Below are positions 58,301 through 61,300 of a DNA stretch of 64,000 bases, one piece after another. The stretch lies in assembly GCF_058153355.1 (NCBI RefSeq), contig NZ_CM177019.1, one strand, 5' to 3'. The stretch's first letter is position 1; the number at the start of each line of letters is the position of its first letter. The position numbers were made by a program.

Positions 58301-61300
58301 CGCCTGCTGTTGCGGATCATAAACTGAAGGCGTAGCGGACTGCGGCGGAGAAATAAATGTCGAAAATGGCACATTCAACCCGGTGGCAATTTTCCATAAT
58401 GTCGCGACCGTCGGGCTGGATTCATTACGTTCAATCTGCCCTAACATCGCTTTAGAAACACCCGTCGCTTCTGCCAGTCGCGAAAGACTCCAACCGCGCT
58501 GCTGACGTAGTTGTTTAAGTGTGGTGGATAAAAAGCGAGTGAGATTTTCCATGTGACTCCTCCGGCAAAGCGGAAGTTTATCACTTGTGCGTTATAACGG
58601 ACAAATGCTACGGTACCTGTACGCTATAACGCACGAGGTGACCATGCGTCTGTTTTCTATTCCTCCACCCACGCTACTGGCGGGGTTTCTGGCGGTATTA
58701 ATTAGCTACGCCAGTTCAGCGGCAATAATCTGGCAAGCAGCGATGGTCGCCGGAGCCACCACTGCACAAATCTCTGGCTGGATGACGGCGCTGGGATTGG
58801 CAATGGGCGTCAGTACGCTGGCTCTGACATTGTGGTACCGTGTGCCTGTTCTCACCGCATGGTCAACGCCGGGCGCAGCTTTGCTGGTTACCGGATTGCA
58901 GGGACTGACACTTAACCAAGCCATCGGTGTTTTTATTGTCACCAACGCGTTAATAGTCCTCTGTGGTATGACGGGATTATTCGCCCGTCTGATGCGTATT
59001 ATTCCGCACTCGCTGGCAGCGGCGATGCTGGCCGGAATTTTGTTACGCTTTGGTTTACAGGCGTTTGCAAGTCTGGATGGTCAGTTTACGTTATGTGGCA
59101 GTATGTTGCTGGCGTGGCTGGCGACGAAAGCTATTGCGCCACGGTATGCGGTTATTGCGGCGATGATAGTTGGGATCGTCATCGTTATTTTACAAGGTGA
59201 CGTTGTCACAGGGGATATTGCCTTTAAACCCGTTCTCCCCGCTTATATTGCCCCTGAATTTTCGTTTGCTCACAGTCTGAGCGTTGCACTCCCCCTTTTT
59301 CTGGTGACGATGGCATCGCAAAACGCTCCAGGTATCGCAGCAATGAAAGCAGCCGGATATTCGGCTCCTGTTTCGCCGTTGATTGTATTTACTGGATTGC
59401 TGGCGCTGGTATTTTCCCCTTTCGGGGTTTATTCCGTCGGTATTGCAGCAATCACCGCAGCTATTTGTCAAAGCCCGGAAGCGCATCCGGATAAAGATCA
59501 ACGTTGGCTGGCAGCTGCCGTCGCAGGCGTTGTTTATTTGTTTGCAGGTCTGTTTGGTAGCGCCATAACTGGAATGATGGCCGCGCTGCCCGTGAGTTGG
59601 ATCCAGATGCTGGCAGGTCTGGCGCTGTTGAGTACCATTGGCGGCAGTTTGTATCAGGCGCTGCATAATGAGCGTGAGCGCGACGCGGCGGTGGTCGCAT
59701 TTCTGGTAACGGCAAGTGGACTAACGCTTGTCGGGATTGGTTCTGCGTTTTGGGGATTAATTGCCGGTGGCGTTTGTTACATGGTGTTAAATTTAATCGC
59801 TGACAGAAACCGATAATAAAAAGCGCCATCTTACGATGGCGCGACTGGAATTACTTTTTGTTAACGTCAAACATGGTGGCATCGGTCGCCATGTCATCAA
59901 TAACTTGCTTAATATTCTCGAAAGCCATTGGCGTACTTTCATTATTCAGGTCTTTACCTTCGCCCTGACGAACGACTTTGATAACCGGTTTATTAGTAGC
60001 TGCATCAATCAGCTCACCTTCAAAATACAGGCGAGTATCCATGGTACGGTGGCCCGTCGCCATTTGCGTCCCCGCGACCACTAATGCGACAGGAACCACT
60101 TCATAGAATTGCAGCCCTTCTTTGCTGGTATCTACACCGGTAATGGCCCCACGGAAAATCAGACTACGCGGCCCAGCGGTGGTAACCAGTGGTTTACGCT
60201 GCGCAATCGCTTCTTTCATTTCAGTGTTGGTATAGCTCAAAATTTTATCCAGAACTTTCTGCCCTACCTGAGTAGAAGGTTTCGGCACCGGATAATAAGT
60301 GATTGGGTTCCAGACGATGCTGTCATATTTACTTTGATCAAAACTTGGGTCTACCCAACGTAAAACAGGCTTACCCGTTGCAGAATTTGTTTCTTTTAAA
60401 TCAGAGTAATTGTTTAAAAAGCCAGAATATTTATCTGGCTGGGTGATTTTAGAGGCACAACCAGACAGAGCCAACAAGCCGCATAAAGCTGCAACTTTCG
60501 CAAATGATGTGGTACGCATGAATAGTTTCCTGAGATGATTATATTACTTTTTAAGTTATAGCAAAAAGCACCGCTTCGTGTTGTGGCAAAAAAAGTGTTG
60601 GTGAAAATAAATTTTTCAGCCCCTTTTCAGACGACATAGTCAATGCCGAAAAAGGGGCTAAGTCAATCATCAGTAGTTAAATTTCAGTAAGTTAAGCTGC
60701 TAAAAAACTTCGACTACTGTGATTAATTTCACATCCATTCGATAAAAAATATGCTTACCGAAAAGAAGAACAGTAGACCATCTCAGCGTGGGGAATTTTC
60801 ACGCGCCTTGTTCTTACCAGGTTATTTTTTACGTGCCAGCATCGTGGCGAAACGCAGTTTAATACGATTACCGTTGGCGTCGGTGCGGTGCAGCTCGCCG
60901 ACGTCTTCATTGTATTTCACCATCTCCCAGCCTTCGTAATATCGACGTAATTCTCCCTCTTTGAAGGCAAACGGGAAGCCGACGGTACATGGATAATCAG
61001 CGGTATCCATCGCCGCCACAATCAGGTTGTAACCGCCAGGTTTAGTGCAACGTTGCATATTGGCAATCAGCCCAGGGATGGTTTTAGCCTCAAGGAACAT
61101 CAGCACCACAGTCGAAAGAATAAAATCGTATTGCCCATCAAACGTGAGGTTATTCAGATCAACGACCCGGGTATGTAAATTATCCAGATTTTCAATGGAT
61201 TTAATGCGCTCGACGTTGGCGATACTCATGGCATTTTTATCCCATGCGTCAACTTCATAACCATTGGCTGCCAGGTAAAGACTGTTACGACCATTGCCAC

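What the first reader, a model, noticed from the sequence alone, without database searches (positions are those of the whole stretch)
60618..60659. 10-bp stem with 22-nt loop between ydcL and tehB
agcccctttt-N22-aaaaggggct forms a perfect 10-bp stem with an unusually large loop in the tehB-ydcL intergenic region, with no adjacent T-run in either orientation. It could be a regulatory RNA structure or a binding site rather than a terminator.
Basis: seen in the sequence. Interest (0 to 1): 0.3.

Follow-up and report, generated by a model that had tools for sequence, protein, structure and literature searches.

The report
Stem-loop ending the tehAB transcript
The inverted repeat is real and is a conserved RNA hairpin that most likely marks and protects the 3' end of the tehA-tehB messenger RNA just upstream of the ydcL promoter, which makes it an ordinary, unannotated example of a known kind of element.

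Summary
The 10-bp inverted repeat at 60618-60659 is present exactly as described. tehA, tehB and ydcL are all on the minus strand. As RNA of that strand, the "22-nt loop" pairs further, giving a 17-19-bp stem with a 5-nt loop and a 3-nt bulge (-22.1 kcal/mol, z -5.3). The plus strand folds worse (-15.9), because several pairs are G-U.

- **Copy number and conservation:** it is single-copy, and the 42-mer is identical in 4712 of 5406 E. coli genomes. It is kept in other Escherichia species.
- **Other genera:** all 39 tehB-ydcL loci examined have a hairpin at the equivalent place. The Citrobacter/Salmonella version shows strong compensatory change, with 10 of 12 pairs changed on both sides.
- **Position:** outside Escherichia the hairpin lies 4-47 nt after the tehB stop codon. 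In Escherichia a genus-specific ~130-bp segment pushes it to about 160 nt.
- **Terminator features:** only 4 of the 39 loci have a T-rich tail. In the window the tail is GAAAAATTTATTTTC, followed by a C-rich, G-poor stretch.

My best reading is a U-tract-less 3'-terminal stem-loop of the tehAB operon, either a protective hairpin on a Rho-terminated transcript or a weak terminator. I found no transcript-end data. It is a new member of a known kind, and interest is low.

The parts
60618..60659 (-). Core hairpin. The outer 10-bp perfect stem is AGCCCCUUUU/AAAAGGGGCU. On the minus-strand RNA there is also a U-G pair, a 3-nt bulge (UCU), a 6-bp inner stem CGGCAU/AUGUCG and a 5-nt loop UGACU.
   Evidence: (repeat I7) and 7: -22.1 kcal/mol, z -5.27. 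The 42-mer is identical in 4712 of 5406 E. coli genomes.
60616..60661 (-). Extended stem. Two extra base pairs (UU with GA) lie at the foot of the hairpin.
   Evidence: Fold of the 101-nt context. Both pairs are standard in every row with a letter on both sides: UA/UG in 10 of 10, and CG/UG/UA in 9 of 9 with one row gapped.
60600..60617 (-). A/U-rich tail GAAAAAUUUAUUUUCACC after the stem. The U-rich part starts 7 nt from the stem, so it is not a canonical terminator U-tract.
   Evidence: Sequence. Not reported by the terminator scan.
60578..60617 (-). C-rich, G-poor 40 nt immediately downstream of the hairpin (10 C, 2 G). This is a possible Rho loading region and overlaps the upstream part of the ydcL promoter region.
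   Evidence: Base counts. Compared with the C-over-G enrichment described for Rho-dependent 3' ends in PMC6061677.
60822..61415 (-). tehB coding sequence. The hairpin begins 162 nt downstream of its stop codon.
59851..60519 (-). ydcL (DUF3313 lipoprotein) coding sequence. The hairpin ends 98 nt upstream of its ATG.
60555..60563 (-). TGCTATAAC, an extended -10-like element of the ydcL promoter. It is conserved in every genus examined. The TTGCTA that contains it starts 47-57 nt after the hairpin in Escherichia, Citrobacter and Salmonella, and in single loci of three other genera.
   Evidence: Alignments and distances. An RpoS holoenzyme SELEX peak lies in the tehB-ydcL spacer (PMC5493296). The promoter assignment itself is inference.
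60672..60818 (-). Escherichia-specific spacer of about 130 bp between the tehB stop and the hairpin. It is context, not part of the hairpin. It is absent from Escherichia sp. MOD1-EC7003 (L008) and from other genera.
   Evidence: Single-copy in E. coli.

Best explanation
The element is an RNA stem-loop on the minus strand, at the 3' end of the tehA-tehB transcription unit.

**Proposed mechanism.** Transcription from tehAB runs through the hairpin. Because no U-tract follows directly, RNA polymerase is probably released a little further on by Rho, which would load on the C-rich, G-poor stretch just downstream. Alternatively the read-through RNA is cut in the A/U-rich tail. 3'-to-5' exonucleases then trim back to the foot of the stable stem. 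That gives the tehAB mRNA a defined, protected 3' end and keeps upstream transcription out of the ydcL promoter, which starts about 50 nt further on.

**Shown here:** the structure, its strand preference, its conservation and covariation, and its position relative to tehB and ydcL.

**Inferred:** that transcripts end there, and the roles of Rho and the exonucleases.
For: 1. **Strand.** The minus-strand fold is -22.1 kcal/mol (z -5.27) against -15.9 for the plus strand, and -26.3 against -16.7 over 72 nt. This is the sense strand of both flanking genes.
2. **Conservation.** The element is single-copy, and the 42-mer is identical in 87% of 5406 E. coli genomes, with at most one mismatch in the rest. 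It is present in all Escherichia species sampled, 90.5% of cells are paired, and L008 keeps pairing through a register shift with U-to-C and A-to-G changes.
3. **Other genera.** All 39 tehB-ydcL loci have a hairpin in the spacer.
   - In Citrobacter/Salmonella, 10 of 12 pairs show changes on both sides.
   - The covariation score is 0.359 against 0.210 in shuffles (0 of 500 reach it), and 86.8% of cells are paired against at most 55% when partners are slid.
   - U-G pairs are frequent.
4. **Position.** The hairpin lies 4-47 nt after the tehB stop in every lineage that lacks the Escherichia insertion, including Escherichia sp. L008 at 35 nt.
5. **No U-tract.** It was not called by the terminator scan.
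6. **Downstream composition.** The first 40 nt have 10 C and 2 G.
7. **Fit to a described class.** Points 5 and 6 match the stable stem-loops without a U-rich tail, followed by C-over-G enrichment, found at 3' ends of Rho-dependent E. coli transcripts and shown to protect against PNPase and RNase II (PMC6061677).
8. **Contrast.** ydcL itself has a canonical terminator at 59823-59842, so the region does use ordinary terminators elsewhere.
Against: - No transcript 3'-end, Rho-dependence or stability data for tehAB could be found. tehB and ydcL are absent from the held supplements of two E. coli transcript-mapping papers, and four other papers had no supplements held as text.
- The C-rich stretch is short (about 40 nt) and overlaps what looks like the ydcL promoter region, so its composition may serve the promoter rather than Rho.
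- Within Escherichia the covariation test is uninformative: 113 of 500 shuffles reach the observed count of pairs changed on both sides, and 93 of 500 reach the covariation score.
- The loop sequence CATTGACTAT is invariant across the genus, which a mere protective hairpin does not require.
- In Escherichia the hairpin is about 160 nt from the stop codon, so its link to tehB rests on homology with other lineages.
Confidence: 0.55

Rival explanations
1. It is a weak, non-canonical intrinsic (Rho-independent) terminator. The hairpin itself makes RNA polymerase release within the A/U-rich tail GAAAAAUUUAUUUU, with low or partial efficiency, so some transcripts read through into ydcL.
For: The stem is stable and G+C-rich, with a short loop on the sense strand. 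The following 14 nt are entirely A/U apart from one G. Four loci in other genera have a T-rich tail on the equivalent hairpin. Two of them (L064, L070) were called by the terminator scan, and L079 and L080 show it by sequence.
Against: The U-tract criterion is not met: the first six bases after the stem are GAAAAA, and the scan did not report the hairpin. In addition, 35 of 39 loci lack a T-rich tail, so the U-less state is the rule here and not a recent decay.
Confidence: 0.25
2. In Escherichia the hairpin serves a transcript that starts inside the genus-specific spacer under control of the perfect CRP site at 60718-60733. It would be either the terminator of a small RNA of about 80 nt on the minus strand or an attenuator in a long CRP-dependent ydcL leader.
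For: A perfect TGTGA-N6-TCACA site, expected 0.07 times per window, lies 66 nt upstream of the hairpin. Both half-sites are identical in all nine Escherichia rows that carry the spacer; L008 lacks it. YdcL protein was higher in a ptsG-deletion strain, together with RbsB and RbsK (PMC9356451).
Against: - The hairpin predates the spacer and survives without it, both in L008 and in all other genera.
- No convincing -10 element lies at class I or class II distance on the minus strand. TAACTT and TTAACT are poor and not conserved.
- No promoter-like site was called there, and there is no U-tail of the kind sRNA terminators have.
Confidence: 0.08
3. It is part of a plus-strand small RNA, antisense in orientation to tehB and ydcL. 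One such RNA, 'Ssr15', was predicted computationally for this spacer in Shigella flexneri 2a 301.
For: Ssr15 is listed for the SF1779/tehB spacer on the opposite strand (PMC4782007). A plus-strand promoter-like site TTCACA-16-TATGCT (60728-60755) and a terminator-like hairpin (60786-60804) exist.
Against: - Ssr15 has no 'Yes' in the RT-PCR column of that paper.
- The promoter-like site lies downstream of the hairpin on the plus strand, so that transcript would not contain it.
- The plus-strand fold is weaker, and U-G pairs become C-A mismatches.
- The plus-strand folds of the spacer are not better than shuffles (z -0.46).
Confidence: 0.04
4. It is a DNA-level palindrome bound by a dimeric transcription factor that controls ydcL.
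For: The repeat lies 51-55 nt upstream of the conserved TTGCTA (-10-like) element of ydcL in all eight Escherichia loci, and 48-55 nt in all but one of the Citrobacter/Salmonella-clade loci. The loop motif ATTGACT is repeated 24 bp upstream, and both copies are invariant in Escherichia.
Against: The arm sequences differ completely between genera while complementarity is kept (AGCCCC.., GCGTTCAGC.., GCGCCCAG.., ACGGGC..), including wobble pairs that exist only in RNA. A 22-bp spacer between 10-bp half-sites is atypical.
Confidence: 0.03

Closest known systems
[quoted passage not shown]
   Same: A stable stem-loop downstream of a gene on the sense strand, with no U-rich tail and no upstream A-tract, followed by more C than G. 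tehAB would be a poorly expressed operon; that is my recollection and was not tested here. The paper reports that Rho-dependent genes are on average less expressed.
   Different: No mapped 3' end and no bicyclomycin read-through measurement exists for this locus. In Escherichia the hairpin lies about 160 nt from the stop codon. The C-rich stretch is only about 40 nt long and overlaps the next gene's promoter region.
Intrinsic (Rho-independent) terminator
   Same: A G+C-rich stem with a short loop after the last gene of an operon. The equivalent hairpins in Yokenella, Enterobacter sp. ENT03 and Pseudocitrobacter have proper T-rich tails.
   Different: No U-tract lies within 0-2 nt of the stem; GAAAAA intervenes. 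The stem is longer than usual and carries a 3-nt bulge.
REP/BIME intergenic repeat hairpins of enterobacteria
   Same: An intergenic, imperfectly extended palindrome downstream of a gene that could stabilise the upstream mRNA.
   Different: It is single-copy in E. coli genomes. It also has no resemblance to the REP consensus, a comparison I made from memory.

Membership tests
Intrinsic (Rho-independent) terminator | Stable G+C-rich stem-loop in the RNA, downstream of the last gene | tested here: met
   Minus-strand fold of -22.1 kcal/mol, z -5.27, with a 5-nt loop. It lies downstream of tehB on the sense strand.
Intrinsic (Rho-independent) terminator | U-rich tract (about 5 or more U in 8) starting within 0-2 nt of the stem | tested here: not met
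   The tail is GAAAAAUUUAUUUUC. The scan with exactly this criterion did not report the hairpin.
Intrinsic (Rho-independent) terminator | Factor-independent release of RNA polymerase at the site | not testable with these tools
   This needs in vitro transcription.
Protective 3' stem-loop of a Rho-dependent transcript (PMC6061677) | Stable stem-loop without a U-rich tail and without an upstream A-tract | tested here: met
   The upstream flank is GAUGAUUGACUU.
Protective 3' stem-loop of a Rho-dependent transcript (PMC6061677) | C-over-G enrichment in the downstream sequence (rut-like) | tested here: inconclusive
   There are 10 C and 2 G in the first 40 nt, but C/G is only 1.6 over 60-80 nt, and the stretch overlaps the ydcL promoter region.
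Protective 3' stem-loop of a Rho-dependent transcript (PMC6061677) | Steady-state RNA 3' end at the foot of the stem, with read-through when Rho is inhibited | not testable with these tools
   No tehB or ydcL entry in the supplements that were held. No supplements were held as text for four other papers.
Any described RNA family (Rfam 15) | Match at or above a family's gathering score | tested here: not met
   The best hits were 14.7-19.5 bits against gathering scores of 47-85.6, with E-values from 0.4 to 10.
REP/BIME or other dispersed repeat | Many copies per genome | tested here: not met
   The median is one place per E. coli genome for the hairpin and for the neighbouring spacer.
Transcription-factor palindrome | Conservation of the half-site sequence itself across species that keep the regulated promoter | tested here: not met
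   The arm sequences differ between genera while pairing is preserved.
Small protein gene | Reading frame kept in relatives | tested here: not met
   The 39-codon ORF 60551-60670 is broken by 1-nt insertions in O157 and in Escherichia sp. E1V33.

The most novel reading that the evidence does not exclude
In the genus Escherichia, an inserted spacer of about 130 bp carrying a perfect CRP site has co-opted the ancestral tehAB 3' hairpin. The hairpin would now end or attenuate a cAMP-CRP-dependent transcript, either an unannotated small RNA of about 80 nt or a long ydcL leader. This would link catabolite control to the ydcL lipoprotein. The invariant loop sequence CAUUGACUAU would then act as a functional single-stranded motif.
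Probability: 0.07. Interest if true: 0.45.

Novelty: new member of a known kind. Interest (0 to 1): 0.15.

Why it matters
It matters little beyond annotation. It would add one well-conserved example to the class of U-tract-less 3' stem-loops that define and protect the ends of weakly expressed, probably Rho-terminated operons. It also sets a boundary between the tehAB and ydcL transcription units in E. coli and its relatives.

The comparative data are a clean illustration of one point. Such hairpins are held by selection on pairing across Enterobacteriaceae even when no U-tract is present.

The nearby perfect CRP site in an Escherichia-specific spacer is the only piece that might repay an experiment.

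Tried and rejected
- **Rfam scan of 59800-61500 at E up to 10:** only chance-level hits.
- **Dispersed repeat or mobile-element remnant:** the hairpin and the 147-nt spacer are both single-copy in about 5400 E. coli genomes.
- **Small ORF across the hairpin (39 codons, 60551-60670):** the frame is broken by 1-nt indels in O157 and in Escherichia sp. E1V33.
- **Protein-binding palindrome:** rejected because the arms change between genera while pairing is kept.
- **Promoters using the two TTGACT motifs as -35 elements:** no -10 element at a workable spacing (reading of the sequence).
- **Other structures in the spacer:** the minus- and plus-strand folds of 60735-60840 are not better than shuffles (z -1.08 and -0.46).
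- **Covariation within Escherichia alone:** too little variation to say anything.
- **Literature search for tehB or ydcL transcript ends:** nothing in the held supplements of Adams 2021 and Yan 2018. No supplements were held as text for Dar and Sorek 2018, Choe 2022, the 3'-seq comparison preprint or the nanopore paper. One guessed PMC id was not held.
- **Literature on tehAB terminators or on CRP at ydcL:** nothing direct.

Full report
**What is there**

The window is Escherichia coli-like. A 551-nt query around the finding matches 5412 of 5426 complete E. coli genomes, mostly at 95-99% identity, and the features under the match are tehB and ydcL. On the minus strand the order is tehA (61412-62512), tehB (60822-61415), a 302-nt spacer, then ydcL (59851-60519). 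ydcO is convergent on the plus strand.

The inverted repeat AGCCCCTTTT / AAAAGGGGCT sits at 60618-60627 and 60650-60659, perfectly complementary, with 22 nt between the arms. It begins 162 nt after the tehB stop codon and ends 98 nt before the ydcL ATG.

**Is it more than chance?**

A perfect 10-bp inverted repeat with a 3-30-nt loop is expected about 1.9 times in a 64-kb sequence of this composition, so the repeat alone is weak evidence. The fold is not weak.
- As minus-strand RNA, the 42-mer forms a nearly continuous stem: the 10 perfect pairs, a U-G pair, a 3-nt bulge, six further pairs (CGGCAU/AUGUCG) and a 5-nt loop.
- That fold is -22.1 kcal/mol, z -5.27, and none of 200 shuffles does as well.
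- The plus strand reaches only -15.9 kcal/mol. Over 72 nt the values are -26.3 against -16.7.
- The '22-nt loop' is therefore largely an artefact of counting Watson-Crick pairs only, and the asymmetry points to an RNA made from the strand that encodes tehB and ydcL.

No Rfam family matches, and the K-12 RefSeq record annotates nothing in the spacer.

**Conservation inside Escherichia**

The element is single-copy.
- The 42-mer is identical in 4712 of 5406 E. coli genomes, and the rest have one mismatch.
- The variants seen are U-to-G at the U-G pair in O157, and A-to-U at the innermost A-U pair of the perfect stem in E2348/69. Both weaken the middle of the hairpin and neither is compensated.
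- In E. albertii, E. whittamii and three unnamed Escherichia lineages the outer stem is kept, and the inner stem is replaced by UGAC/GUCA.
- In Escherichia sp. MOD1-EC7003 (L008) a U-to-C and an A-to-G change, with a one-base register shift, keep 11-13 pairs.
- The two pairs at the foot of the stem vary only among UA, UG and CG.
- Taken alone, the genus gives too little variation for a covariation test: 90.5% of cells are paired, but 113 of 500 shuffles reach the observed count of pairs changed on both sides.

**Other genera**

I fetched 80 tehB loci from one genome per species. Thirty-nine of the loci held, 38 from that scan plus K-12, have ydcL directly downstream. Every one of these has a G+C-containing hairpin in the spacer.
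- The arm sequences differ between lineages:
  - AGCCCCUUUU in Escherichia
  - GCGUUCAGC, GCGCCCAG or GUGUUCGGC in Citrobacter and Salmonella
  - ACGGGC with a GNRA loop in Kluyvera
  - GUGCCGCUCU in Yokenella
- In the alignable Citrobacter/Salmonella clade (19 sequences), 10 of 12 pairs show changes on both sides.
  - 86.8% of cells are paired, against at most 55% when partners are slid.
  - The covariation score is 0.359 against 0.210 in shuffles (0 of 500 reach it).
  - U-G pairs are frequent.
- That is selection on RNA pairing on the sense strand, not on a DNA sequence.
- C. amalonaticus and Escherichia share the flanks (AGC..CC..TTTTTC on the 5' side and CTGAAAAA(A)TT after the stem), so these hairpins are probably homologous.

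**Where the hairpin belongs**

- Outside Escherichia it starts 4-47 nt after the tehB stop. In L008 it starts 35 nt after.
- The usual Escherichia distance of 144-165 nt is due to a genus-specific segment of about 130 bp inserted between the stop codon and the hairpin.
- The distance from the hairpin to the conserved TTGCTA (-10-like) element of ydcL is 47-57 nt in all but one locus of Escherichia, Citrobacter, Salmonella and a few other genera. It is 65-170 nt in Kluyvera, Pseudocitrobacter, one Citrobacter (L043, 68 nt) and two other lineages.
- The hairpin thus follows the end of tehB at least as faithfully as the start of ydcL.
- tehB loci without ydcL also tend to have a hairpin just after the stop codon.

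**Terminator or not?**

- Only four of the 39 loci have a T-rich tail. In Yokenella and Enterobacter sp. ENT03 the scan calls a terminator. The two Pseudocitrobacter loci show a T-rich tail by sequence, although the scan did not call L080.
- In the window the stem is followed by GAAAAATTTATTTTC, and the scan did not call it. The defining U-tract of an intrinsic terminator is therefore not met, here and in most relatives.
- The first 40 nt downstream have 10 C and 2 G.
- Dar and Sorek mapped 3' ends of E. coli transcripts and reported the following (PMC6061677):
  - Rho-dependent transcripts end just after stable stem-loops that lack a U-rich tail.
  - A mild C-over-G enrichment lies downstream of these ends.
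  - The stem-loops protect against PNPase and RNase II.
- The tehB-ydcL hairpin fits that description feature by feature as far as sequence can show.
- I could not find any measured 3' end or Rho dependence for tehAB.

**Explanation**

The most likely reading (about 0.55) is a 3'-terminal stem-loop of the tehAB transcript. It sets and protects the mRNA end after factor-dependent termination or cleavage just downstream, and it insulates the ydcL promoter. An RpoS holoenzyme SELEX peak lies in this spacer (PMC5493296).

The rivals are as follows.
- **Weak intrinsic terminator acting in the A/U-rich tail (about 0.25).** This is the main rival.
- **An element of a CRP-dependent transcript.** This is made unlikely by L008 and the other genera, which keep the hairpin without the CRP-bearing spacer.
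- **Part of a plus-strand sRNA.** The Shigella flexneri prediction 'Ssr15' covers this spacer on the opposite strand but was not RT-PCR-validated (PMC4782007).
- **A protein-binding palindrome.** This is contradicted by the change of arm sequence between genera with pairing kept.

**Unexplained residue**

The loop sequence CATTGACTAT is invariant in all ten Escherichia sequences, and a second ATTGACT just 5' of the stem is also invariant. A plain protective hairpin does not need that. The whole stretch from the hairpin to the ydcL ATG is very strongly conserved in the genus, so this may reflect promoter-upstream constraints.

**Verdict**

It is an unannotated member of a known class, and interest is low.

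Noticed in passing
window 60718-60733 (context 60672-60818): A perfect CRP consensus TGTGATTAATTTCACA lies in a spacer of about 130 bp that only Escherichia has between tehB and the hairpin. 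Such a site is expected 0.07 times per window. Both half-sites are identical in all nine Escherichia rows that carry the spacer. The spacer is missing from Escherichia sp. MOD1-EC7003 and from other genera. YdcL protein was reported higher in a ptsG-deletion strain together with RbsB and RbsK (PMC9356451). No target promoter could be assigned.
   Followed up: partly
window 60728-60755 and 60786-60831, plus strand: A promoter-like site TTCACA-16-TATGCT overlaps the CRP site. It is followed on the plus strand by a hairpin GCGTGGGGAATTTTCACGC and a T-run that overlaps the tehB stop codon. This could give a transcript of about 70 nt convergent with tehB. The fold is not better than shuffles (z -0.46), and this part of the spacer is the least conserved in the genus. 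A computational sRNA prediction, 'Ssr15', in Shigella flexneri 301 covers this spacer on that strand but was not RT-PCR-validated.
   Followed up: partly
window 60637-60643 and 60661-60667: The heptamer ATTGACT (minus strand) occurs twice, 24 bp apart: once in the hairpin loop and once just 5' of the stem. Both copies are invariant in all ten Escherichia sequences aligned. No promoter or known binding motif could be matched.
   Followed up: partly
window 60520-60600, minus strand: The ydcL upstream region is almost invariant across Escherichia species, more so than the coding sequences. An extended -10-like TGCTATAAC (60555-60563) and a CATTTTTGCCACAACA-type motif are shared with other genera. 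ydcL was reported down-regulated in a rob mutant (PMC7537768), and an RpoS SELEX peak lies in this spacer (PMC5493296).
   Followed up: partly
window 59817-59850; L001 5162-6909: K-12 MG1655 carries IS609 (insQ) between ydcL and ydcO. This window does not: only 34 bp separate the two convergent genes. That gap holds a canonical terminator hairpin, GCGCCATCGTAAGATGGCGC followed by TTTTTATTAT (59823-59842, minus strand).
   Followed up: no
L006 (E. coli FCI1, NZ_CM172811.1), hairpin region: This assembly shows tandem partial duplications of the 5' arm and loop of the hairpin (AGCCCCTTTTTCGGC repeated). This is either replication slippage at the hairpin or an assembly error.
   Followed up: no
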